From NCBI GenBank assembly GCA_014360465.1, contig JACIXQ010000001.1:35677-99676 (forward strand): 64,000 nt of DNA, read 5' to 3'. Origin of the DNA: a bacterium. Its GTDB lineage: Bacteria; Armatimonadota; JACIXR01. The notes under the pieces are model-generated. The model searched no databases, was not told the DNA's origin, and was given only the letters and a program-made list of their open reading frames with translations. Positions 16,228-60,573 of the stretch are shown one piece after another. The translations under genes and the position numbers were made by a program. Every line of letters starts with the position of its first letter. Position 1 is the stretch's first letter.

Positions 16228-16866
16228 TCAATATCCTGTTTCCATCTCGCTGATTATTTCTTCGGAAAGATGGCAAGTATCATTCAGTGTCACTATTTGC
16301 CATCCCCATTCTTCGTAGAAATCAAAGATATTTATATTAGCGTTAGCCTGTTTAATTCGTCTGAAAGGTTTTATTGTCCCAAGGATATGACAGACAAAAG
16401 CCCTTATGGGTCCACCGTGTGCGACGAGAAGAACTTCTTCTCCCTTGTGTCTGGTGGGTATATTTTCTATAAATTCAACCACACGACTTTGCATTTCCAA
16501 TATTCCTTCTCCTTCTGGAGGGTAAGCCTTTCCTTCATACCATAGTTCCAAAGCGTTTCCCCATTTCTCTCTTATTTCCTCCAAGGTTAGTCCTTCCCAT
16601 TTCCCGAAATCGGCTTCCATTAAAGATGTTGTTTCTACCACTTCTAAATTATGCGTTAAAGAGATGATTTCGGCGGTATTTTTTGCTCTTATAAGGGGGC
16701 TAGAATATACAGCATTGAGCGGGATGTTGGCAAGTCTTTTAGCCAGGAGTTTGGCTTGTGTGATGCCCTTTTGATTTAAAGGGACATCCGTCCTGCCTTG
16801 CATCTTTCCTCCATCGTTCCATTCTGTCATTCCGTGCCTAACCAGATATATCCTCGTTTTGCACAT
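16228..16866 (-). CDS. Histidine phosphatase superfamily (phosphoglycerate-mutase-like) phosphatase
   Basis: N-terminal IYLVRHGMTEWN RHG catalytic motif and a downstream LLVAHGGPIRA His box. Its start overlaps the 3' end of the Clp1-like gene by 29 nt. Confidence 0.8.
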   Translation of the reverse strand: MCKTRIYLVRHGMTEWNDGGKMQGRTDVPLNQKGITQAKLLAKRLANIPLNAVYSSPLIRAKNTAEIISLTHNLEVVETTSLMEADFGKWEGLTLEEIREKWGNALELWYEGKAYPPEGEGILEMQSRVVEFIENIPTRHKGEEVLLVAHGGPIRAFVCHILGTIKPFRRIKQANANINIFDFYEEWGWQIVTLNDTCHLSEEIISEMETGY

Positions 16867-17920
16867 ATTTGTCCTCCTTTTTCTGCGGTAGGTTTATCTT
16901 CATAGAGCCAAAGACAATTGTTGAAACCTTGTTAGCATCTCGGAGTGGGGTATAAATAGTGAGGTTCTTCTCAGCGAAACCGATGCTCTTTATTATTCCG
17001 ACCTCAATGTATTCTCCGTTCTCACTTGCAAGCCCTACATATCTATCGGTCAGCTCATCCACTGTAATTATGTGGACCTTTTTGCCCAATTCCCTTTCAA
17101 GAGAAAGGGGGGATAGACCCCCATATTTTTCTTCTCCTACCAGCCATATTCCCCATCTATCGCCTTCTCCCCATAATAGTTTTCTTCCCCATTTACTCTC
17201 AAGGTATTTCAGGAGTGAAGGATGAAGGGGATTGGTTGCAAAGATAGGTGAATTGCGAAAGGCAATCCGGTCCAGGGTGAAGGTGAGAAAGGAAGCATTT
17301 GCGAAATGGGAAAGAACTTTTCTCTCCCTGTTTTCCTTCCTTTCCTCAAAGGAGCGAGCGGAAGCCAGGGGTGAGGGGGGAAGACGATATATATTCAACC
17401 AGCTCGTCTTTTCCCAGCCCTTCAAAATATGTTCCACTTCTATCCCCCTCTGAAGAGCGACAAGATGATTTGGGCGGATTGCCTCTATTTTGAAGCTTTT
17501 AAGCTTTCTCGCTGGCATACCGCTCACGAGCCCTGTTGTATCAACGAGGACAAGTTCTGCTCCAAGTTCCAACGCCTTTCGGACCATCTTTTCTGTGCCA
17601 ACGACCATATCAAGAAAATGACCCTGAGGTGATATATCGCCGACAAAGTAAAGAGCCGATAGAGGGATATCTGATAGTGACATCATTTCTGGATGGGCAA
17701 ATCCTAAACCGATTGTCCCGGGTGGACCGATGTCTGACTGACCTATATCTGCGTCCACGACAGCAACCTTTTGGTAAAAGTTGAGGGCATAAAAGGCTAC
17801 GGCAGCGCAGAAGGTGCTCTTGCCTACATCAACAGCTCCAAGAACCAGTGCCACGCCGCCTTCCCTTGCTATTTTCTCTCCCACTTCCTGCCATTGAGGA
17901 TGGAGCTGGAATTTCCTCAT
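16838..17920 (-). CDS. Clp1/Grc3-family P-loop polynucleotide 5'-hydroxyl kinase-like protein
   Basis: Walker A GAVDVGKST followed by VAVVDADIGQSDIGPPGTIGL, which tracks the eukaryotic/archaeal Clp1 segment VELDVGQGSVSIPGT. The colinear downstream blocks are VDTTGLVSG...LVALQRGIEVEHIL and LPPSPLASARSFEERKENRERKV. A 4-nt ATGA overlap links it to the upstream M20 gene. Confidence 0.7.
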   Translation of the reverse strand: MRKFQLHPQWQEVGEKIAREGGVALVLGAVDVGKSTFCAAVAFYALNFYQKVAVVDADIGQSDIGPPGTIGLGFAHPEMMSLSDIPLSALYFVGDISPQGHFLDMVVGTEKMVRKALELGAELVLVDTTGLVSGMPARKLKSFKIEAIRPNHLVALQRGIEVEHILKGWEKTSWLNIYRLPPSPLASARSFEERKENRERKVLSHFANASFLTFTLDRIAFRNSPIFATNPLHPSLLKYLESKWGRKLLWGEGDRWGIWLVGEEKYGGLSPLSLERELGKKVHIITVDELTDRYVGLASENGEYIEVGIIKSIGFAEKNLTIYTPLRDANKVSTIVFGSMKINLPQKKEDKYVQNEDISG

Positions 17921-22188: not shown

Positions 22189-22599
22189 TATCTCTCACCT
22201 TCCTCAGCAATAAATGTTCAAGAAAAATCTAAATCAAATTTTAATTTAACATAGACTAAAGTCAAACTATATTTTGACTGACCCTTTCCGACAGGTTTTT
22301 CGGTTGAAAGGATCTGGAAATATTCTTTCCCTTCTCCCTCTGCATCTCACTTCTCAGCGAATTAATCCAGATAGCCGATTATTTCGGTTAATGAAAAAAC
22401 GCTAAGCCAATAAACATAAGTGAATTCAATAAGAGTTTGATGCACTTTGATGGGGAGTCCAATATGTTATGGAATTCTACATTTCCGTCTTTCCTCGGTT
22501 TTCTTTTTTGTGTCTATCTGTTGTAGGGAATATACTTCTTGTAGAATTGAGGAAACAGTTCCTTTTTAAGTAAAATTATTTTTGAGGAAGAGCGCTTTC

Positions 22600-22627
22600 T
22601 TGACTTGCTTTGAAAATATGTTATAAT
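22600..22627 (+). promoter_or_regulatory. Sigma70 promoter with extended -10 for tRNA-Met
   Basis: TTGACT at 22600-22605, a 16-nt spacer, TGT-TATAAT at 22619-22627, and an AT-rich UP-like tract upstream. The tRNA 5' end lies 15 nt downstream of the -10. Confidence 0.5.
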
Positions 22628-22641
22628 ATACAGTGAAGGAC

Positions 22642-22718
<77 letters not shown>

Positions 22719-24251
22719 TTTTTTATAGTCTTTCCTTTCTCCCTTGTTGTCTATGATAGCGTTTTCGTCCCTTGAGGTTCCCTCTTCTCACATTTATTCA
22801 ACAAAGCCTAAAAAGTGGTTTTGTTGGGCTTTGTTGCATAATTCATCAAAAGGGAAACACCAAAAGGTAAACGGTAAGTTAACCTACTTTCCTTTATCAA
22901 AGTTGACAATTTAAGGATAATTTTTGCTTTGTTGAATAAAACCATTTCAAATTAAAGTTATAACTGCTTTCCTCATAAATTTAATATTCAGCTCAAATTT
23001 TGTTTATTCTCCGATTCATTACTATTATAGAGAAGAAACTTTCCGCTATTGCTCTATTACCATAGCCCAACTCTTGAACTCCTTTCCTTTAGCCATAGCG
23101 CAATCAATGATTATTATAAGCTCTCCGACATCCATTATTTAACAAAGCCACAATTGAACAAGATTCCCGAAGGTAGGGCAACTTTTGGCTCAATAGCAAA
23201 ATGGGAGAGGAATTTTTACGAAGCATTCAAAATAGAAGGATTGACCTCAAAGGGGAGGGATAAAATGGCGGTTAGAAACTTATTTTGAAAGAGTGCTAAT
23301 CTTCGTCCTTGCTTGCGATTATCCCTCACTAATTTGCGAGCGTAAATTAAATCTTAAATCTTCTTTGTGAATGTTTTGCTAATCCTTCCTAACGCGCCGA
23401 GCCCCAACGCGGACCGCTTCTCACGCCGGGAAGGCTGATTATTTTGTAGCCACGGCTTTTAGCCCAATTCCTTGCTGCTTTTTCCAACTTGCTATTGCCA
23501 CAATTCAGGAAATCCTCTGCCATTGATTCATCGCCAAACTTATGATTTGTTTAGGATTTGTCACGGGAGATAAAAAAGTGTTATTAAAGCAAAGGGTGAA
23601 TAGATACATAGGATAGAACCTGATATTGTGAGTAATTCTCTGGAACAAGTAAAAATAATAAACGAAGAAGCTTCAAAACAAATCTAAGGAGGAAAGCTCG
23701 TTCTATACCTTTTATTTGCACCCACTGTGGACGGAGGTAGGCAAGTAAAGGGGGAAATGGACACCACAAAAGGGAGCTGAGAGTTTCGGAGGGGGTGTAG
23801 AGGAAAAGATTGGGGGTTGCCACTGGCTGGATAAAGTTGCAAAAGATGGGCTGATAAGTCCGGGAGAAGCGAAAGGAAGACGAGCTAAATGTTGAATAAC
23901 GGCTCTCGATGAAATCTGCTAAGAGTTGATGGAAAAGGACAGTTTGCGTTTCGCATATATTAAAAGATACTTTCCGAAAGGGAAGGAGGAACATTAGGTC
24001 TTGAGAGGTTAGACAACGCGAGAACGGGAATGCTTTCCGGAAAAGGAAATAAGAACTTGATGAGGGAGGATATCTATGGGTACTATGATAAAAAATTTGA
24101 TATAATTTAAGATGACAAGTCCTAAACATAGGGAACTTTACCAAATAATTGCCTTAATATATCCTTTTAACTTGGATTTCATTAAAAAATTGCTTGCATA
24201 AAAAATTTCCTCGGGGTAATATTTTCATAAAATTTATGGAGGTGATTTGAT

Positions 24252-32841: not shown

Positions 32842-33618
32842 CTATAGACCGAATATATCGTTTGGGCAGAAGCGAATTGTGCCTCCTTTGAAGCGGAACT
32901 TCAGCTGGGGAACGGAATACCATTTGGCGTGCCCATCGGCAAAGACAAGGTTTGAGCCACCTGTATGTCTGCTGAAACGTTTGATTGCTTCATCCAGATT
33001 ATGAATTACCGGTGGACAACAGGTAAGGACGGAAGGGTCGTTCCAGCCCGGACCGGGGTTGGTGAAAGATAGCCAAATGGAGATGCCTGTAGCCCCATCA
33101 TAGGCGGCGCCCAAAACAGCATGTCTGCCATCGGCTATCACCACCGTCTCCGCTGGGGCAGCTATGGCAGCAAGCTTTGCGGTGGAAGCATTGCCCCTTC
33201 CACACCAGTTAAGGGGGTTCATTATCCTCTCGTTATAGCCGTAATCAAGAGGATGTGAGTTTTGTGGTCTTCCCCATCGCTGTGGATAACAAATGCTGAC
33301 CCCGGTTCTTTCCGGGCTGAGGGAGCTGGGGCATTCAAAGACCTGCCAGTTCTTCGTATAAGGGGCAAGTTGTTCCCACCAGGCTAATCCTCCGTCGTCG
33401 TGTCCCCAACAGGGCCAGTGCCAGGTAGGAAGCACTTCATCCCAATCTTGCGCATACATCATCAACGCGGTTCCTATCTGTTTCGTGTTAGATAGGCAAG
33501 CGGATTTTCTCGCTTGTTCCCTGGCACGGGAAAAAACGGGAAAGAGAATTGCCGCCAGGATCGCGATAATCGCGATCACGACGAGCAATTCTATCAAAGT
33601 AAACCCCCTTCTTTTCAT
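32842..33618 (-). CDS. DUF1559 / prepilin-type N-terminal cleavage-methylation domain protein (H-X9-DG family)
   Basis: [34 protein letters not shown] leader/helix and the C-terminal [17 protein letters not shown] motif. Confidence 0.8.
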
Positions 33619-47950: not shown

Positions 47951-49756
47951 ATGAGGCGTTTTTATCTTTTCCTTGGGCTCCTTCTATTTATCACTGGGAG
48001 TATCTTCCCACTGCAGTTCGTGCATATAACCGATACACATATTGGGTCGGCAAGCGGGGCAAAGAATTTGAATTCCTTCTGCCAGTTACTGAACTCTTTT
48101 CCCGAGAAGCCGGATTTTATCATCCACACAGGGGACATAACGGAGTTCGGAGCGGATGAGGAATTTCAAACCTATTCCCGCATCGTTTCAGCCCTCAACA
48201 TACCCATTTATCACACCCTTGGTAACCACGATGTCCGCTGGAATGGAGCCATCTTGGCAATAGCTCCAAAGCTTTTCCCAAGCTATAGTAGGCGTGGTTA
48301 TACATTCAACAAGGAGGGTATAACTTTTATCGGTTTGGATTCCTCTTTCCCATTTAGCCAGTATGGAATTATTGACCCTTCCCAGCTTAACTGGTTGAAA
48401 GAGACATTGAGTCAACTTCCAAAGGACCAGCCGATAGTGGTTTTTTGTCATCATCCATTGATGCTATCCAACAACTTCCTCTTTGGTCAGCAGGCTTTGT
48501 TAGAGATTTTGAAGCCTTATAATGTGGTCCTTTTTCTTACAGGGCACGGGCACTCAGATAGGGTTTGGCAAGTAGATGGGATAAATTTCCTTATGACCAA
48601 AGGATTAATGGATGCGGATGCCAGCTTCCGTCTCATAAAAATAGAGAACGAGGGAATAGAGGTTGCTACTTATGGTCTGGATGGGAAGGAGAAGAGTGCG
48701 AGGTTGAAGTTTAATCTTAAAAGGGTGGGGCAGTCGGAGATTTCTCCGAATTCAAAAAGTGCTAATCAGGGAAATTTGGTTGCTCAATTGAATGGGGCGA
48801 TTCAAGGAGACTTAGTTGCCTCTGGCAATCTGATTTTCGCCTGTAGCTGGGATGGGGAAGTCCTTGCGCTGGATGGAAAGAGCAGAACAGTGGTCTGGAA
48901 AAAAAGGATGGATTCGCCTATCCTTTCTTCTCCCTATGTGGAGAACGGGGTTTTGTTCGTTGGTTTTCTCAACGGCTATGTGAGGGCGTTTGAATGCAAA
49001 ACGGGTTCTATGAAATGGGAGGTTAAATTGCCAGAGCCCGTGACGGGACGGCTAAATGGAAAAAATGATAGATTGTTCGTTCCAGCGAACCGTTCTATCT
49101 TTGCCTTAAGAACAGACAATGGAAGCATAATCTGGAGAAAGGACATTGGAGGCAGTTTGGAGAGTAAACCCTTGATAAAGGATGGTATTCTCTATATTGG
49201 TGCTTGGGATAAGAATCTCTATGCATTGAGAGCCGATAACGGTGAGATAATTTGGAAAAAGGAGACAGCACGTTCCCGTTATTTTTCTCCTGCCACTTGT
49301 CTTCCCATCGCCTGGAATAATTTTATCTTAATCACACAGGCTTACGATAGTAGCAGTAAAAAGGGCGGTCTGTTAGCCCTTGATGAAAACGGCGAAATTG
49401 TTTGGCAAGTGGAAGGTAATTTCGGTTATTCTACTCCCATTGTTGCGGGGGATAAGCTTTTCATAGTTTCTATGGAGGGGAAACTGCTTTGTGTTTCGCC
49501 GAAGGGTGAGGTCATCTGGAACATCTCATTGGGAACATCGTTCTTCAATTCCCGCCCAGTGATTGCGGGAGGGAAACTTTATAGCGTTTCTTTCAACGGA
49601 ACGCTTTTCATCCTGGACATATCAAATGGAAAATTGATTAGCAAGGTAAGGCTTTCTCAAGATGGTTGTTGTGTTTCTACCCCAGTGATAAGCGAAGGTA
49701 GCATTTTTATAGGGGATATGATGGGTAGGATTTTTGCTTTCCCTCTTTCTGGTTAA
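47951..49756 (+). CDS. Calcineurin-like metallophosphoesterase fused to a PQQ-repeat (BamB-like) beta-propeller; secreted
   Basis: N-terminal metallophosphoesterase motifs (HITDTH, GD(IT)EFG, GNHD, GHGH). The C-terminal half contains about six repeats of the DG.I.W..-type (e.g. DNGEIIWKKE). Confidence 0.7.
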   Translation: MRRFYLFLGLLLFITGSIFPLQFVHITDTHIGSASGAKNLNSFCQLLNSFPEKPDFIIHTGDITEFGADEEFQTYSRIVSALNIPIYHTLGNHDVRWNGAILAIAPKLFPSYSRRGYTFNKEGITFIGLDSSFPFSQYGIIDPSQLNWLKETLSQLPKDQPIVVFCHHPLMLSNNFLFGQQALLEILKPYNVVLFLTGHGHSDRVWQVDGINFLMTKGLMDADASFRLIKIENEGIEVATYGLDGKEKSARLKFNLKRVGQSEISPNSKSANQGNLVAQLNGAIQGDLVASGNLIFACSWDGEVLALDGKSRTVVWKKRMDSPILSSPYVENGVLFVGFLNGYVRAFECKTGSMKWEVKLPEPVTGRLNGKNDRLFVPANRSIFALRTDNGSIIWRKDIGGSLESKPLIKDGILYIGAWDKNLYALRADNGEIIWKKETARSRYFSPATCLPIAWNNFILITQAYDSSSKKGGLLALDENGEIVWQVEGNFGYSTPIVAGDKLFIVSMEGKLLCVSPKGEVIWNISLGTSFFNSRPVIAGGKLYSVSFNGTLFILDISNGKLISKVRLSQDGCCVSTPVISEGSIFIGDMMGRIFAFPLSG

Positions 49757-50253
49757 TCTTCTTCCTCATCTATGTCCAGGAAGAGGGTTTCTTCGTCCTG
49801 GTCATATCCGAAGAGCTCGGCGTAGCGTCCCCAGCTTATCGCTGTGCGCAGAAGGAGGTCAGCTTCCTCTTCGGACAAATCTTCCAGGAATATTTCAAGG
49901 ACTTCATCTTTTTGGAGGGGTTTTCCCTTATTTGCTTTTAGCAACTCAAGGATCTTCTTCATCCAGGGGACTTCCATTACCGCCCTGGCAAATATCTCCT
50001 TTCTTTCCTGGATATTTCCCCGCAGGAATTCGTAGCCCCAATCGGTTATCTCTATGTCGCCGCCTTCGGCGACGACGAAGCCGAGGAGTTCAGCTGCTCT
50101 TATTACAGGCAGGAGGTCATCCAGCTCAAATTGTAAACTCCGAGCCAGTTTTGGAATATCCTCCTTGCCTCCTAAATCATCAAGTATTTCCAATAAACCT
50201 ATAATTTGTTCTACCTCCGCACTTGGCAGAGGTTCACCATCCATAGCAAGCAA
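49753..50253 (-). CDS. Acidic hypothetical protein, possibly a stand-alone AAA-associated C-terminal domain of NitT/TauT-type ABC ATPases
   Basis: 166 aa, very Asp/Glu-rich, encoded directly downstream of the ABC ATPase on the same strand. No catalytic motif. Confidence 0.35.
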   Translation of the reverse strand: MLAMDGEPLPSAEVEQIIGLLEILDDLGGKEDIPKLARSLQFELDDLLPVIRAAELLGFVVAEGGDIEITDWGYEFLRGNIQERKEIFARAVMEVPWMKKILELLKANKGKPLQKDEVLEIFLEDLSEEEADLLLRTAISWGRYAELFGYDQDEETLFLDIDEEED

Positions 50254-50265
50254 CCTCCTTTCTTA

Positions 50266-51048
50266 TCATACTATAATGGCATAGACCTTGTCCACAATTT
50301 TTTGGAACTCCTCATCCCGCTGATTGCGAGGACGAGGGAGGGTAACATCGATTTCACCGATGATTTTACCTGGGTGGGTGGACATTGCTACTATCCTATC
50401 GCTCATAAAGACTGCTTCCTCTATGCTATGGGTAACCATAAGGATTGCAAGTATAGGTAGTTCCTTATTGCCCCAAAGCCTCAGGAGCTCTTCTCTGAGG
50501 TTCTGGCTGGTGAGTGGGTCAAGACTTGAGAAAGGTTCATCCATACAGAGAAGCTCAGGCTCAAGAGCAAGGGCACGGGCGAAGCCAACTCTCTGCTTCA
50601 TACCACCCGAAAGCTCCCTGGGATAGGCGTTCTCGTGTCCATCAAGCCCTACTTTTTCCAACCAATACTTTACTCTTCTTTCCCTTTCCTTTTTATCAAT
50701 CCCGCGTGCTTCAAGACCCAATTCCACATTTTGCCAGACCGTGAGCCAGGGGACCAGAGCAAAATTCTGGAATACAAGTGCTGTCTTGGCATTTACCCCC
50801 TCTACTGGTTGTCCCCGATAGAGGATTTGTCCCTTTGTAGGTCTATCGAGTCCAACTATCATCCTGAGGAGGGTGCTTTTACCGCAGCCGGAAGGACCAA
50901 CTAAGCAGACGAACTCGTTCTCAAAGACATCAAAGGAAACATCCTCAAGAACCACGATGTTGGTATCCTCGTGGTGGTATGTGCGATATACATTCCGCAC
51001 TTCCAGAAGTTTAGGCTTCAAAGTTGTATTTCCGTTCGGCAAGCTCAT
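50266..51048 (-). CDS. ABC transporter ATP-binding protein (NitT/TauT, SsuB/TauB-like)
   Basis: Walker A GPSGCGKST, Q-loop, signature LSGGMKQRVGFARAL, and Walker B LLCMDEPFSSLD. Confidence 0.9.
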   Translation of the reverse strand: MSLPNGNTTLKPKLLEVRNVYRTYHHEDTNIVVLEDVSFDVFENEFVCLVGPSGCGKSTLLRMIVGLDRPTKGQILYRGQPVEGVNAKTALVFQNFALVPWLTVWQNVELGLEARGIDKKERERRVKYWLEKVGLDGHENAYPRELSGGMKQRVGFARALALEPELLCMDEPFSSLDPLTSQNLREELLRLWGNKELPILAILMVTHSIEEAVFMSDRIVAMSTHPGKIIGEIDVTLPRPRNQRDEEFQKIVDKVYAIIV

Positions 51049-52702
51049 ACATCTTTCTCCAGAAGAATTTGTTCAAAAGAACTATTGTAAGGCTCATAGA
51101 AGCGAGTGAAATCAGGATCAGGGCGAGATTGCCCGCCTTGTAAGTAGCATAATCTAAAAGATAACCGATGCCAAATGCATAGTAAAGTTTGCCCTTAAAG
51201 GTAATCCATTCGGCGACGATGAGCGCATTCCAGGCGCCACCCCAGGCAGTGATGCTACCGGTTATGAGGGCGGGGAATACCGCGGGCAGAAGAATCTTTC
51301 GCCAATAGCGAAAGCCCCGTATGCCCAGAATGGCGGATAACTGCCTTAAATCGGTTGGGATTGACTTAACGCCACCGATTAGATTGAAGAGAAGATACCA
51401 CTGAGAACCGGTGAGTATGAGAAGAATTGTAGCGATGTTCACATTTCCTGTTATGCTGACGATATAACGAACGATGAAAGGAAAGAAGGCGATGGCTGGT
51501 ATGGAGGCAAAAGCTTGGATTAAGGGCATAAAGAAATTTTCCCTTCTCTTGTTTGAAGCGATGTAGACAGCAGTGGGAAGTGTCCAAAGCAATGCAAGGA
51601 TATAGGCTACAGCGATTCTTCCTGCTGATGCAAGAATGGCAGCAGGAATTTTAAATAGGTAAGCCTTATCTATTTGGACAAGGGAGGAAGTGAGGGAGAT
51701 GATTGCGAGTGATGTACCAAAGGCGATTAAAAAGAGAATGATTGTGGCGAGAGATAATCGCAGGTAGGATGAAAGGGAAGAGGGGAGCTGGATGGGTTTA
51801 AGACGCAGGTTCAATATAGGAGAGATTAGGCGACGAATAAATGAAAGGAGGGAAGATATAAGGGCGATATTGGCTATTTTGACCCACATAAGATAGGTAA
51901 GTGGAGGCTCCGCGGTTGATGATACCATTTCATAGCGGAATTTTTCTGCCCAGTAGGAAAGAGGTTGCCAGATGAAAAAGTACATAAGAAAAATTACGAA
52001 AACAAGCGCTCCTATGCCAGCAAGAGCGAGGTCAATCCTTCCTTTGTCCACAGCCATTTGCAGAAAGCTTCCCAGACCTGGAAGATGGTAATTCATAGGA
52101 CCTATAGCGATTATCTCGCAGGCGATAAGGAAATACCAGCCACCAGCCCAGGACATCATTGAATTGTAAACTACCTTTGGAATAGATGAAGGAACTATGA
52201 GAATGAAGAATTTTTTCAACCCGCTGATGTTCATTAAGTCGATGGCTTCCTTTATCTCCTCTGGTATAGTTTTTATGGACTCGTATATTGAAAAAGTTAT
52301 ATTCCAAGCTTGGGATGTGAAAATTAGGAATATGGCCGCCATTTCTACACCAATGCGGGAGCCATGAAATAAGTTGACGAAGAAATAAACGGCAGCTGGG
52401 AAGAAGCCGAGCACGGGAACCGACTGAAGTATGTCAAGGATTGCCAGCATAATTCCTTCTCGCCGTGGACTCGTTGCAGCTAAATAAGCATAAGTATAAG
52501 AGAATATTAATGATAAAATGTAAGCGGAGAACATTCGCAAAAGGGACCAAAGGGTGTAAATCGGGAGTTTTCTGTATTCAACAGGGATATGTGGCGGTAA
52601 TAGGGCAAAATGGAGGCGTTCCCTATATAGAAAATAAGCTATCCCCATTACAAGCAGAAAGGCGGTTATCTTCGTTAAAGTTTCCCAGATGTTTCTTCTC
52701 AT
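51011..52702 (-). CDS. ABC transporter permease with two fused TauC/SsuC-like transmembrane domains
   Basis: 563 aa containing two tandem BPD-transporter-like modules, each with about six TM helices and an EAA-like loop. Confidence 0.8.
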   Translation of the reverse strand: MRRNIWETLTKITAFLLVMGIAYFLYRERLHFALLPPHIPVEYRKLPIYTLWSLLRMFSAYILSLIFSYTYAYLAATSPRREGIMLAILDILQSVPVLGFFPAAVYFFVNLFHGSRIGVEMAAIFLIFTSQAWNITFSIYESIKTIPEEIKEAIDLMNISGLKKFFILIVPSSIPKVVYNSMMSWAGGWYFLIACEIIAIGPMNYHLPGLGSFLQMAVDKGRIDLALAGIGALVFVIFLMYFFIWQPLSYWAEKFRYEMVSSTAEPPLTYLMWVKIANIALISSLLSFIRRLISPILNLRLKPIQLPSSLSSYLRLSLATIILFLIAFGTSLAIISLTSSLVQIDKAYLFKIPAAILASAGRIAVAYILALLWTLPTAVYIASNKRRENFFMPLIQAFASIPAIAFFPFIVRYIVSITGNVNIATILLILTGSQWYLLFNLIGGVKSIPTDLRQLSAILGIRGFRYWRKILLPAVFPALITGSITAWGGAWNALIVAEWITFKGKLYYAFGIGYLLDYATYKAGNLALILISLASMSLTIVLLNKFFWRKMYELAERKYNFEA

Positions 52703-55086: not shown

Positions 55087-56157
55087 ATGGTGAGAGAAGT
55101 AAAGGATTATTATCAGATTTTGGGAGTTGAGCCTACAGCCACCACAGAGGAGATAAAGAGGCGTTTCAGGGAGCTTGTGCGGCGCTATCATCCTGATGTC
55201 CATCCCGATAAGCTTTTCAGCCACGAGATATTTCGCCAGATACTTGAGGCTTACAAAGTTTTGGGTGACCCAGAGAAAAGGCGGATTTACGATTCATTGA
55301 GGAAGGGGAAAACCCCTGTTAAGGAGGTACTTGTAGAAGTTCCTACGAAACCTCCTGTTGACTTGGAGGGCTTACTTTTGAGGGCGGAGATAGCTCTTAT
55401 AAGAGGTAATCTCAAGGACGCAGTAGAACTTTGTAATGAAGTGCTTAAAAAAGACCCGAGGAACGCATTCGCCTACAATCTGCTGGGCGATATTTTTAGA
55501 GCACAGGGGAGAATTAAAGAAGCGATAGAGATGTATTCCTACGCCGTTCAGTTTGACCCGCATAAGCCGATTTACGCTGAGAAGCTTAACAAGTTGCTCA
55601 AAGGGGAGAGAGGAGTAGAGACGATAGCGGAGGAAAGGATAAGAACAAAACCATTTTCCATTTTTCTCTTCTCGCTCGGTTTGCTTTCCCTCATTCCCAT
55701 ATGCTGGTGGATATCCCACAACCCTGGCACTGTTATAAAAAACTTCCCCTTTGCCAATTTCAGCCTGAATCTCATAATTGCTTTATCTCTCGCAGGAGTA
55801 TCATTGGGATTTTTCTCAGGTTGCTCCCGTTTCCTTCGTAGGCATGACGAGGAATTGATTTTCGCTTTAAGCTGGATTGGAAAAGGATATCTGCCTCTCG
55901 GGTTGATACTCTGCATTTTCTCCTTCGCCTTTTTTTGGGGCTCGTTGATTCTCTATGCGATTATATCGGCTATTCAAGAACATACTTCTTTATCGGTTTG
56001 GAAAGCCTATCTACTTTCTATCCTTGGAATCTTGGCTATCGCCTTTTCACTTCTGCCAATTTGGAAGAGCATCATTCTATGGGGAGGCAATTTCGTGCTT
56101 CCCTTTTTCTTCATCGGCTGGTTGATAGGGGATATATTCCGCCCTATTGGGAGTTAG
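55087..56157 (+). CDS. J-domain (DnaJ-like) protein with a TPR region and a C-terminal multi-TM domain
   Basis: DYYQILGVEPTATTEEIKRRFRELVRRYHPDV with the HPD tripeptide. TPR-like repeats at about residues 100-170. Four to five TM helices at the C-terminus. Confidence 0.7.
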   Translation: MVREVKDYYQILGVEPTATTEEIKRRFRELVRRYHPDVHPDKLFSHEIFRQILEAYKVLGDPEKRRIYDSLRKGKTPVKEVLVEVPTKPPVDLEGLLLRAEIALIRGNLKDAVELCNEVLKKDPRNAFAYNLLGDIFRAQGRIKEAIEMYSYAVQFDPHKPIYAEKLNKLLKGERGVETIAEERIRTKPFSIFLFSLGLLSLIPICWWISHNPGTVIKNFPFANFSLNLIIALSLAGVSLGFFSGCSRFLRRHDEELIFALSWIGKGYLPLGLILCIFSFAFFWGSLILYAIISAIQEHTSLSVWKAYLLSILGILAIAFSLLPIWKSIILWGGNFVLPFFFIGWLIGDIFRPIGS

Positions 56158-56531
56158 GATTTTGAGAAAAACATTCGGATAGCGAGAAGTATAATGATAA
56201 TGGCGAGGAGCTTCTTGACGAGACCGCCGGGGATTTGGGAAACGAGTGTTGCCCCAAGGAATGCTCCCAAAAGCGAACCACACCACATTATTATTGCTAT
56301 TTTCAAATCGGTATTTCCGTAATGAGCGTGGCGGAGAGCACCGACTAAAGCTGTGGGAATCATAACAGCAAGGCTTGTTCCAAGCGCCCTATGGGGTTCT
56401 ACCTTGAACACTTCCGTGAGGATTGGAATTATGATAACCCCTCCACCCAAACCGAAGAAACCACTGAAAGTGCCAACGAAAATGCCGGCTAAAACCAATC
56501 CAATTATTCCGAGCCAGCTAAGGGTTGCCAT
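56154..56531 (-). CDS. Half-size TSUP (TauE/SafE, DUF81) family membrane protein
   Basis: 125 aa with four TM helices and the glycine-rich GLGGGVIIIP motif typical of one TauE repeat. Confidence 0.6.
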   Translation of the reverse strand: MATLSWLGIIGLVLAGIFVGTFSGFFGLGGGVIIIPILTEVFKVEPHRALGTSLAVMIPTALVGALRHAHYGNTDLKIAIIMWCGSLLGAFLGATLVSQIPGGLVKKLLAIIIILLAIRMFFSKS

Positions 56532-56983
56532 AATTCTTCTTTCTCAAGGATTCTTTTTAACGAGATTTCTTTAATCTTAAGTGGACCCAATGGGAGTATT
56601 TTCTCCGTCATTTCGCTGATCACCTGGGCGAATTTTTTGCCCTCTGCGGCAGATATCCATCTTATCTGGAGGCGCTCAGGTTCTATGCCGGCGAAAAGAA
56701 GGAGGTCTTTAAGGAGCATAAATCTGCGGCGGGCGTAATAGTTGCCCTTGGAATAATGGCAATCGCCGGGATGACAACCTGCTACTAAAACTCCATCGAA
56801 ACCCTCTCTGAAGCCCTTTATAACGAAGTATGGGTCCATTCGGGCGGAACAGGGAAAGCGAATAACGCGAGGGGTAGGGGGATAGTGAATGCGGGAGATA
56901 CCAGCGAGGTCTGCGCCAGCATAGGCGCACCAGCGGCACAGAAGGCAGAGAATCCTCGGAGTCCACTCTCTATTCTCTTTCAA
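56504..56983 (-). CDS. mvhD: MvhD-like methyl-viologen-reducing hydrogenase delta subunit, the electron-transfer partner of HdrA
   Basis: Conserved Cys pattern CLLCRWCAY...GCHPGDCHY ([2Fe-2S]-binding MvhD fold). Confidence 0.8.
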   Translation of the reverse strand: MKENREWTPRILCLLCRWCAYAGADLAGISRIHYPPTPRVIRFPCSARMDPYFVIKGFREGFDGVLVAGCHPGDCHYSKGNYYARRRFMLLKDLLLFAGIEPERLQIRWISAAEGKKFAQVISEMTEKILPLGPLKIKEISLKRILEKEELWQPLAGSE

Positions 56984-58955
56984 CTTTAGCCAATCCCTCC
57001 AGTTGTGCTATTAATTGTTCGGATGTAAAACCAAGAAGGTCAATTGCTTGAGACCTGCAAGCTGAGGCGCAATTCCCACATCCCTGACAGAGTCCCGGGT
57101 TTACTTTCGCTATCTTCTTTTCCAACCCCGATGTCTGTTCAAGTACGGTTTCTTCCTCAATAGCCGAATAGGGACATACTTCTTTGCAGGAAAAGCAACC
57201 GACACATTTATTTTTATTAACCCTTGCGACAACCGGCTCGGAAAAGAGGCTTTCTTGTTGCATGATGGCTATAGCTTTGGAGGCAGCAGCCGACGCCTGA
57301 GCAACGCTATCGGGGATGTCCTTGGGGAACTGGCAGGTGCCAGCAAGAAATATACCTTTAGTCATCGTCTCAACCGGGCGTAGCTTGGGGTGAGCTTCCA
57401 TCAACCATCCATATTCGTCAGTGGAGATGTTCAACTTTCTGGCGAGGTCTTTAACATCCTTTCGGGGAACAAGCGCAGCTGCTAAGACAACGAGGTCAGC
57501 CTCAACCTTCACCTGCTGACCGAGAAGAGTATCGGTGCCTTGCACGATAAGTTTTCCATTTTCCGGATATATTCTTCCCACCCTTCCCCTGATATAAATA
57601 GCGCCGAATTCATCCTGCACCCTTCTTACGAACTCCTCATAGCCTTTCCCAAAGGCGCGAATATCAATATAGAAAATGTAAGTCTTCACATTGGGTAAAT
57701 GTTCTTTTAATAGGAGGGCGTGTTTAGCTGTGTACATACAGCAAACACGGGAGCAATAGGGATAACCTTTCTGTTCGTCTCGGGAACCGACACATTGTAT
57801 GAAGACGACGCTTTCGGGATGTTTCCCGTTTGATGGTCGTATTATTTCTCCCTTCGTTGGTCCTGATGAATTTATCATTCGCTCCAATTGGGCGGAGGTG
57901 ATGATGTCTGGATGTTGTCCATACCCATATTCGCCATAGACCGATGCGTCAAATATGTCCGCTCCCGTTGCCACGATGATTGTTCCGAATTTCTCCTTGA
58001 TGTAAGTATCCTGCTGGGAATAATCGATAGCCTTAGCGGGGCAAACCCTTTGGCAGAGTCCGCATCTGCCCTTTGTAAACCAAAGGCAGACCTCTCTATC
58101 TATAACGGGAACGAGGGGCACTGCTTGGGGGAAAGGAATATAGATTGCTTTCCTTTCGCCTATCCCCTCGTCAAATTCGCTTGTGGCTTTCGTGGGACAT
58201 CTTTCAATGCAAAGCCCGCAACCCGTGCAAAGGTCTTCGTTCACGGAACGGGCCTTTTTCTTTATGGTTACCTCAAAGTTGCCGACGAAACCCTTGACTT
58301 CCTCAACCTCGCTATAGCTAAGGATTTTGATGTTGGGATGACGGTAGCAGTCAACCATCTTGGGGGAAAGGATGCACATAGCGCAGTCAAGGGTTGGAAA
58401 AGTTTTATCAAATTGCGCCATTCTGCCGCCAATGCTTGGGCTTTTCTCAACGAGATATACCTGGAAACCTGCTTCCGCTATATCAAGAGCTGCTTGTATT
58501 CCCGCTATCCCTCCACCTATCACCAAAGCTTTTTTCTCCACGCTGAATTCCAGAGGTTCAAGGGGTTGAGCGCGTTTTACCCTTTCTACGGCAGCAGCTA
58601 TCAGTTCAAAAGCCTTTTCTGTTGCGAGTTCTCTATCCTCGTGGACCCAGGAATCCTGTTCCCTGATGTTTGCCATTTCCATAAAGTAAGGATTCAGTCC
58701 GGCTTCGGAAACAGCCCTTTGGAAGGTTGTTTCGTGCATTGCTGGCGAACAAGAGGCGACGACTACACGGTCAAGTTTGTGTTCCGATATGGCGTTTCTG
58801 ATGAGCTCCTGTCCAGGGTCGGAGCACATATAGCGGTAAGAAGTGGAATAAACAACACCGGGAAGGGTAGATGCTTTTTGAGCCACCTGCTCTACATCAA
58901 CTGTTTTCGCTATATTAACTCCGCACCAGCAGACGAAAACACCGACACGGGGCAT
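56970..58955 (-). CDS. hdrA: Heterodisulfide reductase subunit A-like flavoprotein with multiple Fe-S clusters
   Basis: FAD/Rossmann GxGxxG motif (ALVIGGGIAGIQAALDIAEAG), several CxxCxxCxxxCP ferredoxin motifs, and an N-terminal Cys cluster. Confidence 0.85.
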   Translation of the reverse strand: MPRVGVFVCWCGVNIAKTVDVEQVAQKASTLPGVVYSTSYRYMCSDPGQELIRNAISEHKLDRVVVASCSPAMHETTFQRAVSEAGLNPYFMEMANIREQDSWVHEDRELATEKAFELIAAAVERVKRAQPLEPLEFSVEKKALVIGGGIAGIQAALDIAEAGFQVYLVEKSPSIGGRMAQFDKTFPTLDCAMCILSPKMVDCYRHPNIKILSYSEVEEVKGFVGNFEVTIKKKARSVNEDLCTGCGLCIERCPTKATSEFDEGIGERKAIYIPFPQAVPLVPVIDREVCLWFTKGRCGLCQRVCPAKAIDYSQQDTYIKEKFGTIIVATGADIFDASVYGEYGYGQHPDIITSAQLERMINSSGPTKGEIIRPSNGKHPESVVFIQCVGSRDEQKGYPYCSRVCCMYTAKHALLLKEHLPNVKTYIFYIDIRAFGKGYEEFVRRVQDEFGAIYIRGRVGRIYPENGKLIVQGTDTLLGQQVKVEADLVVLAAALVPRKDVKDLARKLNISTDEYGWLMEAHPKLRPVETMTKGIFLAGTCQFPKDIPDSVAQASAAASKAIAIMQQESLFSEPVVARVNKNKCVGCFSCKEVCPYSAIEEETVLEQTSGLEKKIAKVNPGLCQGCGNCASACRSQAIDLLGFTSEQLIAQLEGLAKVERE

Positions 58956-58958
58956 ACC

Positions 58959-59819
58959 TTATCTCCTCCTTAGGGTAGGTATGAGAAATGGGTCTACGAG
59001 GTGTCTTCGTAAACCAAGTTTTTTCGCTGGTATCCCCAGTGCGAGCCCCAGAACCTGGGTGAAATAGAGGATGGGTATATTAAAAATCTCACCCTTTACC
59101 CTGTGGACATCAGCCTGCCGGGCGTCAAGGTTGAGATGACAGAAAGGGCAAGCGGTGACGATGGCATCAGCGCCCGCTGTTTTAGCTGATTTAAGGATTC
59201 TATAGGTTAGCTCAACAACGAGGTCGGAACGGGGAATGGTCAAGTTTGCCCCACAACATTCGGTCTTATGGGTCCAATCCACAACTTGGGCTCCGCAAGC
59301 TCTTAGGAGCTCGTCCATAGTTGTGGGGTTTTCGGGATCGTCAAATTGGCATATGTGGGGTGGACGAAGGAGGAGGCAACCATAATAGCTTGCAAGTTTG
59401 AGGTCGGATAGGGGTTTCGTGATTTTGGGTTTTATCTCTTCAAGCATTCCCACGAAAAGGTCAAGGAGGTTGCGAATTCGCAATCTATTTTCCCAAGGGA
59501 TGGGGAGAAGTTCTCTGACTTTCTCAAAGGTTGCCTTGTCCTGGCAAAGAACAGCTGTGTGCTTCAGACGATTGAAACAGGCAGCGCAGGGAGCGACAAC
59601 ATCCTCAACATCCATTCGCTCAGCGAGAGCGAGGGAATAGGCTGGCATCGCTAAGGATAGGAGATGATTTGTCGCATGGGCAGATGTTGCCCCACAACAT
59701 ATCCACCCTTCTATTTCCTCCAATTCTATTCCTACTGCCTTGCAGACTTCCCTGACAGATATGTCAAACTCAATACCAGTTGAATGGAGGCTACAGCCCG
59801 GGAAATAAGCTACCTTCAT
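58959..59819 (-). CDS. hdrB: Heterodisulfide reductase subunit B-like protein (two CCG domains)
   Basis: Two CCG-domain signatures (WICCGAT...PCAACF and ECCGAN...ACPFCHLNLD). Confidence 0.85.
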   Translation of the reverse strand: MKVAYFPGCSLHSTGIEFDISVREVCKAVGIELEEIEGWICCGATSAHATNHLLSLAMPAYSLALAERMDVEDVVAPCAACFNRLKHTAVLCQDKATFEKVRELLPIPWENRLRIRNLLDLFVGMLEEIKPKITKPLSDLKLASYYGCLLLRPPHICQFDDPENPTTMDELLRACGAQVVDWTHKTECCGANLTIPRSDLVVELTYRILKSAKTAGADAIVTACPFCHLNLDARQADVHRVKGEIFNIPILYFTQVLGLALGIPAKKLGLRRHLVDPFLIPTLRRR

Positions 59820-60358
59820 CTTTGAGATGTTTTCTCCATAAGTTGTCTTACCACCTCGCTATTTGGCGAAGTGGTAGGGAAGGGATTCAATTTGCCATTT
59901 ATGAACATCTTGATTCCCATAAGTATGTCGTTGAACCACTGCCCGCTTCTCAATTTATACTCCATAATAAAGCCCAGTTCGTATAATTTGCCCAACCAGC
60001 CTACCCATCTGCAGAAGATTTTGTGAAAAAGAGGGATTCGTGGCTCTTTAGGTGGGATGTTTTCTTTTAGGGCAATTTCGCGCAGAGCATCCATTACATA
60101 GGAGATTCGTATTTCAAGCGGACAGCGTGCTGTACAGGAGGCACAGGAGGCGCAAATCCATATCGTGGAGGAGGAAAGGACATCCCTTAAGCCTATTTGA
60201 GCCATCCGCATAACCTGATTGGGTTTAACATCCATTGCGAAGGCAAGTGGACAGGAAGCGGTGCATTTTCCACATTGATAGCATTTCTTGACATTTTCTC
60301 CACAAATCTCTTTGATCTGATTGGCTAAGGTGTCATCAGCAACGAGGTCAAGCATCAA
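59816..60358 (-). CDS. hdrC: Heterodisulfide reductase subunit C-like protein (two [4Fe-4S] clusters)
   Basis: CYQCGKCTASCP and CASCASCTARCP motifs. Confidence 0.85.
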   Translation of the reverse strand: MMLDLVADDTLANQIKEICGENVKKCYQCGKCTASCPLAFAMDVKPNQVMRMAQIGLRDVLSSSTIWICASCASCTARCPLEIRISYVMDALREIALKENIPPKEPRIPLFHKIFCRWVGWLGKLYELGFIMEYKLRSGQWFNDILMGIKMFINGKLNPFPTTSPNSEVVRQLMEKTSQR

Positions 60359-60573
60359 AAAATCACCGTAAACAATTATATCTTCAGAGGGTTTAAAGTC
60401 AAAATAAAATTCGTTTTATTTCAAAAATTCAATTTTTAGAACAAATATTACATAGCTGGCTTATTGTGAGGTGGGAATGCAGATATAATAGAGTAAAAAA
60501 ATTTATTTTTTTAATTGACGCCATATAATCTATTTATATGCTATTTTAAAAATATCAATTGGAGGTGATTTAA

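What the first reader, a model, noticed from the sequence alone, without database searches (positions are those of the whole stretch)
56154..60358. HdrCBA-MvhD flavin-based electron-bifurcation module without a hydrogenase, followed by a half-size TauE/SafE
A complete hdrC-hdrB-hdrA-mvhD operon with overlapping genes sits in what otherwise looks like a saccharolytic heterotroph. No MvhAG, FdhAB or MetFV partner is in the window. The immediately downstream gene is a 4-TM half TSUP protein (sulfite/organosulfonate exporter family), hinting at a sulfur-compound or disulfide substrate for this Hdr.
Basis: partly seen in the sequence, partly recalled or inferred. Interest (0 to 1): 0.5.

Follow-up and report, generated by a model that had tools for sequence, protein, structure and literature searches.

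The report
Flx-less HdrCBA-MvhD operon with half-TSUP
A five-gene operon encodes the iron-sulfur/flavin core of a bacterial heterodisulfide-reductase complex that, in this uncultured lineage only, lacks the adjacent NADH-dehydrogenase genes found beside nearly all its relatives and instead ends in a conserved half-size sulfur-anion-type membrane transporter; it is a modestly interesting variant of a known system.

Summary
On the minus strand, 56154-60358 holds hdrC, hdrB, hdrA, mvhD and a 125-aa single-repeat TSUP (TauE/SafE) gene. The genes are tightly packed or overlapping. A near-consensus promoter-like site lies upstream, and the unit is bounded by divergent and convergent genes. All Fe-S cysteine motifs are intact.

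This HdrA belongs to the bacterial Flx-Hdr family. Among 116 evaluable relatives (53-61% identity), 115 carry flxC-flxB-flxA (the NADH-dehydrogenase module) directly after mvhD (= flxD), and none carries a TSUP gene. The nearest outgroup, Armatimonadota (63-66%), is also Flx-linked.

Only the window's own clade has the TSUP half in place of flxCBA. This clade has HdrA 81-100% identical. Five loci besides the window were read, representing at least three further lineages. All genes are under strong purifying selection (dN/dS ~0.06-0.08 where measurable, dS near saturation).

No hydrogenase, Fdh, MetFV or Flx gene is in the 64-kb window.

Best reading: a functional Hdr-FlxD core whose electron partner is encoded elsewhere or is ferredoxin alone. 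The half-TSUP probably dimerises to move the sulfur-containing substrate or product. Substrate and donor remain unknown.

Verdict: new variant of a known kind, with moderate interest.

The parts
60375..60402 (-). Sigma-70-like promoter candidate (TTGACT, 16-nt spacer, TATAAT) just upstream of hdrC
   Evidence: Scores 11 of 12 matches and is the best site in the region. The sequence was read. This is a consensus match only. The total count of sites in the region is not above the shuffle expectation.
59816..60358 (-). hdrC: two-[4Fe-4S] ferredoxin-like subunit, 180 aa (probable true start is the ATG at 60355)
   Evidence: Pfam Fer4_8/9/17. NCBIfam HdrC 77.7 bits, below the 160 cut-off. PDB 8rvu_c at 2e-18. 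Cysteines 26, 29, 32, 36 and 69, 72, 75, 79.
58959..59819 (-). hdrB: catalytic subunit with two CCG domains (ligands for non-cubane [4Fe-4S] clusters), 286 aa
   Evidence: PF02754 twice. TIGR03288 175 bits and SdhE-type 197 bits, both below cut-off. PDB 8rvu_b at 7.5e-46 over residues 1-275. Both Cx31-39CCx34-35CxxC motifs are complete.
56970..58955 (-). hdrA: FAD plus six-[4Fe-4S] subunit, full length, 661 aa
   Evidence: NCBIfam HdrA2 868 bits, below the 1100 cut-off. PDB 8rvu_a/5odc_A 743-754 bits over residues 2-656, with all cluster cysteines aligned. NCBI protein MBC7326572.1.
56504..56983 (-). mvhD / flxD: [2Fe-2S] electron-transfer adaptor, 159 aa, TTG start with a GGAGGG Shine-Dalgarno sequence
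   Evidence: PF02662 170 bits. PDB 5odc_D at 9e-48 over residues 6-139, cysteines conserved. dN/dS 0.06 against L086.
56154..56531 (-). Half-size TSUP (TauE/SafE) membrane protein, 125 aa: one 4-TM repeat
   Evidence: PF01925 99.5 bits, profile positions 1-111 of 237. Full-size TSUPs match it twice. AF2 model has pLDDT 86, with four long helices and one short one. It is 70-96% identical and 123-125 aa long in the clade. dN/dS 0.07-0.08. NCBI protein MBC7326570.1.

Best explanation
This is one transcription unit, hdrC-hdrB-hdrA-mvhD(flxD)-TSUP-half.

The four soluble proteins form the FAD/iron-sulfur core of the bacterial Flx-Hdr type heterodisulfide-reductase-like complex. In this uncultured, Armatimonadota-related lineage the flxC-flxB-flxA NADH-dehydrogenase genes that normally follow flxD are not there. 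A single-repeat TSUP gene, translationally coupled to mvhD, takes their place.

Inferred mechanism:
- HdrB's two non-cubane [4Fe-4S] clusters reduce (or oxidise) a still unidentified disulfide or sulfane-type sulfur compound.
- HdrC wires HdrB to the HdrA flavin.
- HdrA's ferredoxin domains exchange electrons with ferredoxin.
- MvhD's [2Fe-2S] cluster connects to a partner encoded elsewhere. Alternatively the complex runs on ferredoxin alone, as a non-bifurcating ferredoxin:disulfide reductase.
- The 4-TM TSUP protein dimerises into the 8-TM architecture of the family. It imports the small anionic sulfur-containing substrate or exports the product.

Shown: gene content, intact cofactor motifs, operon structure, family affiliation, clade-specific conserved linkage, and purifying selection.

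Inferred: complex formation, direction of electron flow, bifurcation, TSUP dimerisation, and any functional tie between TSUP and Hdr.

The confidence of 0.45 applies to the whole statement. The identity part (a functional Flx-type Hdr core lacking flxCBA in cis, with a conserved half-TSUP) is about 0.85. The TSUP-Hdr functional link is about 0.4.
For: - Operon anatomy and domain content.
- Full-length homology to solved HdrABC-MvhD with all Fe-S ligands present.
- Family context: 115 of 116 evaluable relatives from two collections have flxCBA after mvhD, and 0 of 160 have any TSUP gene within 8-10 kb.
- The nearest HdrA outgroup (63-66%) is Armatimonadota with hdrCBA-flxDCBA. The housekeeping LysA also points to Armatimonadota.
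- The five-gene unit recurs in L081/L082, L086 and L176. Matching contig lengths suggest five more contigs.
- In L081 the downstream flank differs and a gene is inserted upstream, yet the unit and the mvhD/TSUP overlap persist.
- No flx within +-10 kb in any clade member.
- Purifying selection: dN 0.06-0.25 with dS saturated or near 1.6-2.7, TSUP dN/dS 0.07-0.08, MvhD 0.06, all ORFs intact.
- TSUP is one repeat unit.
- Split and solitary half-TSUPs exist elsewhere, so half-size members are real genes.
Against: - The rest of the genome could not be read. flxCBA, mvhAG or fdh may simply sit elsewhere.
- The hdr-TSUP linkage is confined to one narrow clade, so it could be historical accident kept by tight packing.
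- No TSUP is near any of 160 other Flx-Hdr loci, so the transporter is not a general requirement of the enzyme.
- TSUP substrates are poorly defined, and no TSUP structure exists.
- The physiological disulfide of Flx-Hdr outside sulfate reducers is unknown.
- The NJ placement of the clade inside the Flx-linked radiation has only 65/100 bootstrap support. 'Loss of flx' is therefore likely but not proven.
Confidence: 0.45

Rival explanations
1. Ordinary Flx-Hdr or Mvh-Hdr system with a relocated partner. The flxCBA genes (or mvhAG, fdhAB) are elsewhere in the genome and still dock on MvhD. The TSUP half is merely a co-transcribed passenger, such as a general anion exporter, with no functional tie to Hdr.
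For: - MvhD keeps all cluster cysteines and is under purifying selection, which fits a surviving docking partner.
- Every relative uses Flx.
- Half-TSUPs occur in unrelated contexts.
Against: - No flx within +-10 kb in four independent clade contexts, nor in 56 kb on one side of the window.
- The overlapping mvhD/TSUP reading frames persist across saturated synonymous divergence and a changed flank.
Confidence: 0.3
2. The TSUP half is a membrane tether or subunit. It binds MvhD/HdrA and holds the otherwise soluble complex at the membrane. This would be analogous in role, but not in fold, to HdrE or QmoC membrane subunits. It could couple disulfide reduction to a membrane process.
For: Translational coupling to mvhD is conserved in the clade: overlaps of 28 nt (window), 19 nt (L081), 25-28 nt (L086) and 28 nt (L176).
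Against: - TSUP proteins carry no redox cofactor motifs.
- No precedent was found in the literature searches.
- No interaction could be modelled with the tools available.
Confidence: 0.1
3. Stand-alone HdrA2B2C2-like enzyme. As in Methanosarcina HdrA2 (an HdrA-MvhD fusion), the complex needs no dedicated dehydrogenase module. It oxidises a diffusible cofactor (NAD(P)H or reduced ferredoxin) directly.
For: - The NCBIfam HdrA2 model is the best hit for both HdrA (positions 1-644) and MvhD (positions 642-775).
- HdrA2B2C2 is active without a partner module (PMC5296606).
Against: - Scores are below the HdrA2 cut-off, and here HdrA and MvhD are separate genes.
- By identity and neighbourhood, the closest relatives are Flx-linked bacterial enzymes, not HdrA2.
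- F420 is not expected in this lineage (knowledge-based, not tested).
Confidence: 0.15
4. Decaying remnant of an Flx-Hdr operon after deletion of flxCBA. It is non-functional, and the TSUP fragment is a truncated pseudogene.
For: The usual partner genes are missing, and the transporter is half-size.
Against: - All five ORFs are intact in the window, L081, L086 and L176, despite saturated synonymous divergence.
- dN/dS is 0.06-0.08.
- All cofactor cysteines are retained.
- Half-TSUP length is constant at 123-125 aa across ten 90%-identity clusters.
Confidence: 0.02

Closest known systems
FlxABCD-HdrABC (hdrCBA-flxDCBA) NADH dehydrogenase/heterodisulfide reductase of anaerobic bacteria (Ramos et al. 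2015, as cited in PMC12125255 and PMC5296606)
   Same: - Same gene order, hdrC-hdrB-hdrA-flxD(mvhD).
- HdrA is 53-66% identical to Flx-linked HdrAs from many phyla.
- Same domain and cysteine content in all four proteins.
   Different: - flxC (FrhB-like/4Fe-4S), flxB (Fer4_22) and flxA (FAD/NAD-binding, 2Fe-2S) are absent from the operon and from the 64-kb window.
- A half-size TSUP gene follows flxD instead.
MvhADG-HdrABC and Fdh-Hdr electron-bifurcating complexes of methanogens (PDB 5odc, 7bkb, 8rvu)
   Same: All four subunits align full length with the solved subunits, and all Fe-S ligands are conserved.
   Different: - No MvhA/G or FdhAB in the window.
- The organism is bacterial, and nothing in the window suggests methanogenesis.
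- NCBIfam equivalog cut-offs for CoB-CoM heterodisulfide reductase are not reached.
HdrA2B2C2 of Methanosarcina acetivorans (HdrA-MvhD fusion, ferredoxin/F420H2-dependent; PMC5296606)
   Same: - An HdrABC plus MvhD domain set with no dehydrogenase module in the operon.
- It is the best-scoring NCBIfam model.
   Different: - Here HdrA and MvhD are separate genes.
- Different gene order.
- The nearest relatives are Flx-linked bacterial enzymes.
TSUP / TauE-SafE family (Pfam PF01925; sulfite and organosulfonate transporters, 4+4 TM repeats)
   Same: A clear Pfam match, with the conserved G-rich TM motifs shared with other half-size members.
   Different: - Only one 4-TM repeat (125 aa versus ~250-300 aa).
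- Full-size members match it twice.
- It must oligomerise to reach the family architecture.
- No characterised member is linked to Hdr.
sHdr (sulfur-oxidising Hdr-like system with LbpA; PDB 6tjr)
   Same: HdrB/HdrC-type CCG and ferredoxin proteins. A TauE-type sulfite exporter is sometimes invoked in such organisms (papers listed).
   Different: - sHdrA is ~350 aa without ferredoxin domains, and it matches only residues 325-564 here.
- No second hdrB/C pair, no lipoate-binding protein, and MvhD is present.

Membership tests
Soluble HdrABC core (HdrA/HdrB/HdrC fold and cofactor set) | Full-length HdrA: N-terminal cluster domain, FAD-binding thioredoxin-reductase-like domain, inserted and C-terminal ferredoxin domains, with all cysteine ligands | tested here: met
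   754 bits to 8rvu_a over residues 2-654, with every cluster cysteine aligned.
Soluble HdrABC core (HdrA/HdrB/HdrC fold and cofactor set) | HdrB with two complete CCG (CxnCCxnCxxC) motifs, and HdrC with two CxxCxxCxxxC motifs | tested here: met
CoB-CoM heterodisulfide reductase (equivalog level) | Scores above the NCBIfam equivalog cut-offs for HdrA/B/C | tested here: not met
   HdrA2 868 against a cut-off of 1100. HdrB 175 against 345. HdrC 78 against 160.
CoB-CoM heterodisulfide reductase (equivalog level) | CoM-S-S-CoB as substrate | not testable with these tools
   Needs biochemistry. There are no methanogenesis genes in the window.
FlxABCD-HdrABC | hdrCBA immediately followed by an MvhD-like flxD | tested here: met
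FlxABCD-HdrABC | flxC, flxB and flxA (NADH-dehydrogenase module) encoded with the cluster | tested here: not met
   tblastn found none in the window. None in L081, L082, L086 or L176. Present in 115 of 116 evaluable relatives.
FlxABCD-HdrABC | HdrA sequence affiliation with Flx-linked HdrAs | tested here: met
   The best non-clade relatives (53-66%) are all Flx-linked. The NJ tree places the clade beside Armatimonadota Flx-linked HdrAs. Nesting within the Flx-linked radiation has 65/100 bootstrap support.
FlxABCD-HdrABC | NADH-dependent activity with ferredoxin and a disulfide (DsrC) | not testable with these tools
   Biochemical property.
Mvh-Hdr / Fdh-Hdr / MetFV-Hdr | [NiFe] hydrogenase MvhAG, FdhAB or MetFV encoded nearby | tested here: not met
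   None among the 52 ORFs scanned (a non-overlapping set of >=80 aa).
HdrA2B2C2 subclass | MvhD domain fused to HdrA | tested here: not met
   Separate ORFs with a 14-nt overlap and a stop codon between them.
sHdr (sulfur-oxidising) | Short HdrA, duplicated hdrB/C, lipoate-binding protein | tested here: not met
   HdrA is 661 aa with ferredoxin domains. There is a single hdrBC pair. 6tjr_A matches only a part of HdrA.
TSUP / TauE-SafE | Pfam PF01925 match above the gathering score | tested here: met
   99.5 bits against a gathering score of 32.6.
TSUP / TauE-SafE | Eight TM segments as two 4-TM repeats in one chain | tested here: not met
   125 aa. Profile positions 1-111 of 237. Four long helices plus one short one in the AF2 model. 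Full-size members hit the query twice.
TSUP / TauE-SafE | Transport of sulfite or organosulfonates | not testable with these tools
   No specificity determinants are known and no solved structure exists.

The most novel reading that the evidence does not exclude
The operon encodes a self-contained, membrane-associated thiol/disulfide cycle. A homodimeric half-TSUP imports (or recycles) a small sulfonated or otherwise anionic disulfide, CoM-like in chemistry. The Flx-less HdrABC-MvhD reduces it with ferredoxin-derived electrons. This would identify, for the first time, a low-molecular-weight physiological substrate for a bacterial non-sulfate-reducer HdrABC, and would show a TSUP working as an Hdr-dedicated permease or subunit.
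Probability: 0.1. Interest if true: 0.75.

Novelty: new variant of a known kind. Interest (0 to 1): 0.4.

Why it matters
The physiological disulfide substrate of HdrABC-type enzymes in bacteria that have neither CoM/CoB nor DsrC is an open question.

In this clade the NADH module is gone and a sulfur-anion-type transporter is translationally coupled to the complex. That gives a concrete handle: identifying the solute carried by the half-TSUP would point to the Hdr substrate.

The clade is also a natural test of whether the HdrABC-FlxD core can work without FlxABC.

If the partner is simply encoded elsewhere and the TSUP is a passenger, the finding is a routine operon rearrangement.

Tried and rejected
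- **Extending the window along its 123-kb NCBI contig to look for a donor module.** Exact-protein look-ups returned only short Logan contigs (L091-L093), or nothing. The rest of the genome stayed out of reach.
- **Looking for TSUP genes near other Flx-Hdr loci.** I used tblastn and an HMM built from 41 half-TSUPs. There were none in 160 loci.
- **Looking for hdr next to more distant half-TSUPs** (P0012, P0021, P0024). There were none.
- **Pseudogene or remnant hypothesis.** Rejected by intact ORFs and low dN/dS.
- **sHdr (sulfur-oxidising) assignment.** Rejected on HdrA architecture.
- **A riboswitch or other RNA element in the 215-nt leader/intergenic region.** No Rfam match at E<=1.
- **A solved TSUP structure for comparison.** None by sequence or fold. 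The afdb50 library was unavailable.
- **Robust rooting of the clade inside the Flx-linked radiation.** NJ bootstrap support is only 65/100, so loss versus never-had is not settled.
- **Literature searches for Hdr+TauE, Armatimonadota+Hdr and the TSUP family.** None described this arrangement. Shlykov et al. 2012 on TSUP repeats is not held.


Full report
**1. What is in the sequence**

The minus strand between 56154 and 60358 carries five consecutive ORFs at exactly the coordinates given:
- hdrC, 59816-60358, 180 aa
- hdrB, 58959-59819, 286 aa
- hdrA, 56970-58955, 661 aa
- mvhD, 56504-56983, 159 aa
- a TauE/SafE-family ORF, 56154-56531, 125 aa

The junctions are a 4-nt overlap, a 3-nt gap, a 14-nt overlap and a 28-nt overlap. 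Shine-Dalgarno-like sequences precede hdrA, mvhD and the TSUP gene.

A TTGACT-16-TATAAT site (11 of 12 matches) lies about 15 nt upstream of hdrC. The number of promoter-like sites in the region is not above the shuffle expectation, so this is only a candidate.

Upstream there is a divergent sugar-isomerase-fold gene followed by a Gfo/Idh/MocA dehydrogenase. Downstream a convergent DnaJ-TPR membrane protein overlaps the TSUP stop codon by 4 nt. The transcription unit is therefore complete within the window and has five genes.

**2. Identity of the proteins**

Pfam and NCBIfam give the expected domains. Against solved structures all four soluble proteins align over their full length with methanogen subunits:
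- HdrA: 754 bits
- HdrB: 160 bits
- HdrC: 70 bits
- MvhD: 166 bits

Every Fe-S ligand is present:
- HdrA has four cysteine groups for the N-terminal and flavin-domain clusters, plus four CxxCxxCxxxC-type motifs in its two ferredoxin domains.
- HdrB has both CCG motifs: C9/C41/C42/C78/C81 and C148/C188/C189/C224/C227.
- HdrC has two ferredoxin motifs.
- MvhD has all its cysteines aligned.

None of the NCBIfam equivalog cut-offs for CoB-CoM heterodisulfide reductase is reached. These are members of the HdrABC fold family, not demonstrable CoM-S-S-CoB reductases.

**3. The rest of the window**

I took a non-overlapping set of 52 ORFs of at least 80 aa, keeping the longest at each place. Pfam scans of these show the following:
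- GH20, GH106-like, GH116, GH38, WbsX-type and pectate-lyase-fold proteins
- a sugar ABC system
- proteases
- prepilin-type DUF1559 proteins
- housekeeping genes

There is no hydrogenase, formate dehydrogenase, MetFV or Flx gene.

LysA from the window finds its own lineage at 75-100% identity. Beyond that, the named hits (57-61%) are almost exclusively Armatimonadota/Fervidibacterota. NCBI labels the source only as 'bacterium'.

**4. Family context, the main new point**

I scanned one genome per species and JGI metagenomes with HdrA. Each scan returned 80 loci at 53-61% identity, from Bacillota, Bacteroidota, Chlorobiota/Ignavibacteria, Desulfobacterota, Planctomycetota, Spirochaetota and others.

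Almost all have the order hdrC-hdrB-hdrA-mvhD followed by three conserved genes. By Pfam these are:
- an FrhB-like/4Fe-4S protein
- a Fer4_22 protein
- an FAD/NAD-binding protein with a DHODB-type 2Fe-2S domain

This is the hdrCBA-flxDCBA cluster of the FlxABCD-HdrABC NADH dehydrogenase/heterodisulfide reductase. That system was described by Ramos et al. 2015 and recently shown to matter in Bilophila (PMC12125255).

Counting:
- 116 of the 160 loci have at least 3.5 kb downstream of hdrA.
- 115 of those carry at least two of flxC/B/A there.
- None of the 160 has a TSUP gene. This holds for tblastn and for an HMM built from half-TSUPs.

The closest HdrAs outside the window's clade (63-66%) are labelled Armatimonadota, and the three I examined have the full hdrCBA-flxDCBA cluster.

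**5. The window's own clade**

Proteins 70-96% identical to the TSUP half, all 123-125 aa, form ten 90%-identity clusters. HdrAs 82-98% identical form seven.

Wherever sequence could be read, the same five-gene unit is present with no flx gene within +-10 kb:
- L081/L082
- L086, where the TSUP gene was not called but is intact at 12425-12799
- L176
- L093, too short to reach the TSUP gene (it ends about 90 nt into its 5' end)

Matching contig lengths for TSUP-half and HdrA clusters suggest five more contigs with both genes.

In L081 the downstream neighbour is an integrase instead of the DnaJ gene, and an extra gene sits upstream of hdrC. The five genes and the mvhD/TSUP overlap are nevertheless unchanged.

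Between the window, L086 and L081, synonymous sites are saturated or nearly so, while dN is 0.06-0.25. Where dS is measurable, dN/dS is 0.07-0.08 for the TSUP half and 0.06 for MvhD. Both the Hdr genes and the half-transporter are therefore maintained by selection. This is not a decaying remnant.

An NJ tree rooted with a methanogen HdrA makes the clade monophyletic (100/100). It places the clade next to the Armatimonadota Flx-linked group. Nesting inside the Flx-linked radiation is recovered in only 65 of 100 bootstrap replicates. Loss of flxCBA is the parsimonious reading but is not proven.

**6. The half-size TSUP**

- The Pfam match covers profile positions 1-111 of 237.
- Hydropathy and an AlphaFold model (pLDDT 86) show four long helices plus one short helix.
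- In an exhaustive HMMER search the best hits are full-size TSUPs of 250-300 aa. Each matches the query twice, once per repeat. The protein is therefore exactly one repeat of the 4+4 architecture.
- Other half-size members exist. One locus has two adjacent halves (L083). Others are solitary and unrelated to hdr.
- The window contains no second half, so a homodimer is the simplest assumption.
- No TSUP structure is in the PDB by sequence or fold.
- The 8-TMS-from-4-TMS duplication origin of the family is recalled from Shlykov et al. 2012. That paper is cited in PMC5840216, but I could not read it.

**7. Interpretation**

What is shown:
- a complete, selected HdrCBA-FlxD core of Flx-Hdr ancestry or affinity
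- no Flx module in cis
- a clade-specific, translationally coupled half-TSUP

What is inferred:
- The four soluble proteins assemble as in the solved complexes.
- HdrB handles a disulfide or related sulfur compound.
- HdrA exchanges electrons with ferredoxin.
- MvhD, whose [2Fe-2S] ligands are retained under selection, still talks to a partner.

That partner may be encoded elsewhere. Alternatively the enzyme may work like the partner-less HdrA2B2C2 of Methanosarcina (PMC5296606), or as a ferredoxin:disulfide reductase without bifurcation.

The TSUP half most plausibly supplies or removes a small anionic sulfur compound. This rests only on family annotation and conserved linkage. A membrane-tether role and a mere passenger role cannot be excluded.

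**8. Comparison and novelty**

The system works like, and descends from or beside, Flx-Hdr. It fails that family's defining feature of an adjacent FlxABC module, so I file it as a variant rather than a member.

It is not Mvh-Hdr, Fdh-Hdr, MetFV-Hdr, HdrA2B2C2 (no fusion) or sHdr (wrong HdrA architecture).

Literature searches found no description of an Hdr-TSUP operon or of Flx-less Hdr in Armatimonadota-like bacteria.

**9. Verdict**

- Novelty: new variant of a known kind.
- Interest: moderate (0.4). The arrangement offers a possible handle on the unknown bacterial Hdr substrate. However, it is confined to a small uncultured clade, the donor and substrate are unknown, and a trivial explanation (partner encoded elsewhere, TSUP a passenger) remains quite possible.

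Noticed in passing
window 49753-52702 (minus strand): A NitT/TauT-type ABC transporter set lies 3.5 kb from the hdr operon. It consists of an AAA_assoc_C protein, an ATPase (best NCBIfam hit SaoA, then nitrate/taurine/sulfonate ATPases) and a fused double permease (NtrB/SaoP/TauC-like). It is a possible second sulfonate-type transporter in the neighbourhood.
   Followed up: partly
window 55087-56157 (+): A DnaJ-TPR protein with a hydrophobic multi-TM C-terminal region is convergent with the TSUP half and overlaps it by 4 nt. The same neighbour is present in L086 and L176 but not in L081.
   Followed up: partly
window 15201-16211 (-): A URO-D family protein has weak, sub-threshold similarity to MtaA/CmuA methylcobamide:CoM methyltransferases. 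This probably reflects superfamily resemblance only.
   Followed up: no
window 11538-12263 (+), 32842-33618 (-); L081 5059-5829: Several prepilin-type N_methyl + DUF1559 proteins are present. One of them is inserted between hdrC and the divergent isomerase gene in L081.
   Followed up: no
window 4940-6274 (+): Beyond its own lineage, LysA's best named relatives (57-61%) are almost all Armatimonadota/Fervidibacterota. The NCBI 'bacterium' MAG is therefore probably an Armatimonadota-related lineage.
   Followed up: yes
window 22189-23583: An ORF-poor 1.4-kb stretch contains a single tRNA-Met (22642-22718). This is the only Rfam or ARAGORN hit in the window.
   Followed up: no
L056, L067-L069, L075, L077 (Clostridia-type loci): Here hdr-flx clusters are preceded by an Ldh/Mdh-type dehydrogenase. 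They are followed by a 2Fe-2S/4Fe-4S protein plus a fumarate-reductase-like FAD_binding_2 flavoprotein. This hints at a lactate/malate-fumarate-linked use of Flx-Hdr in that group.
   Followed up: partly
L110, L100, L148: These are unusual Flx-Hdr loci. L110 has flxCBA copies on both sides of hdrCBA-mvhD. L100 has a second short HdrA-MvhD pair 7 kb downstream. L148 has an extra flxB-flxA pair.
   Followed up: no
L083 3866-4621: A split TSUP is encoded as two adjacent half-size genes (118 and 132 aa). This is a natural two-gene version of the 4+4 architecture.
   Followed up: partly
window 16838-17920 (-) and 16228-16866 (-): A CLP1_P P-loop (polynucleotide-kinase-like) protein sits next to a histidine-phosphatase-family protein. 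This is a possible RNA-end-processing pair.
   Followed up: no
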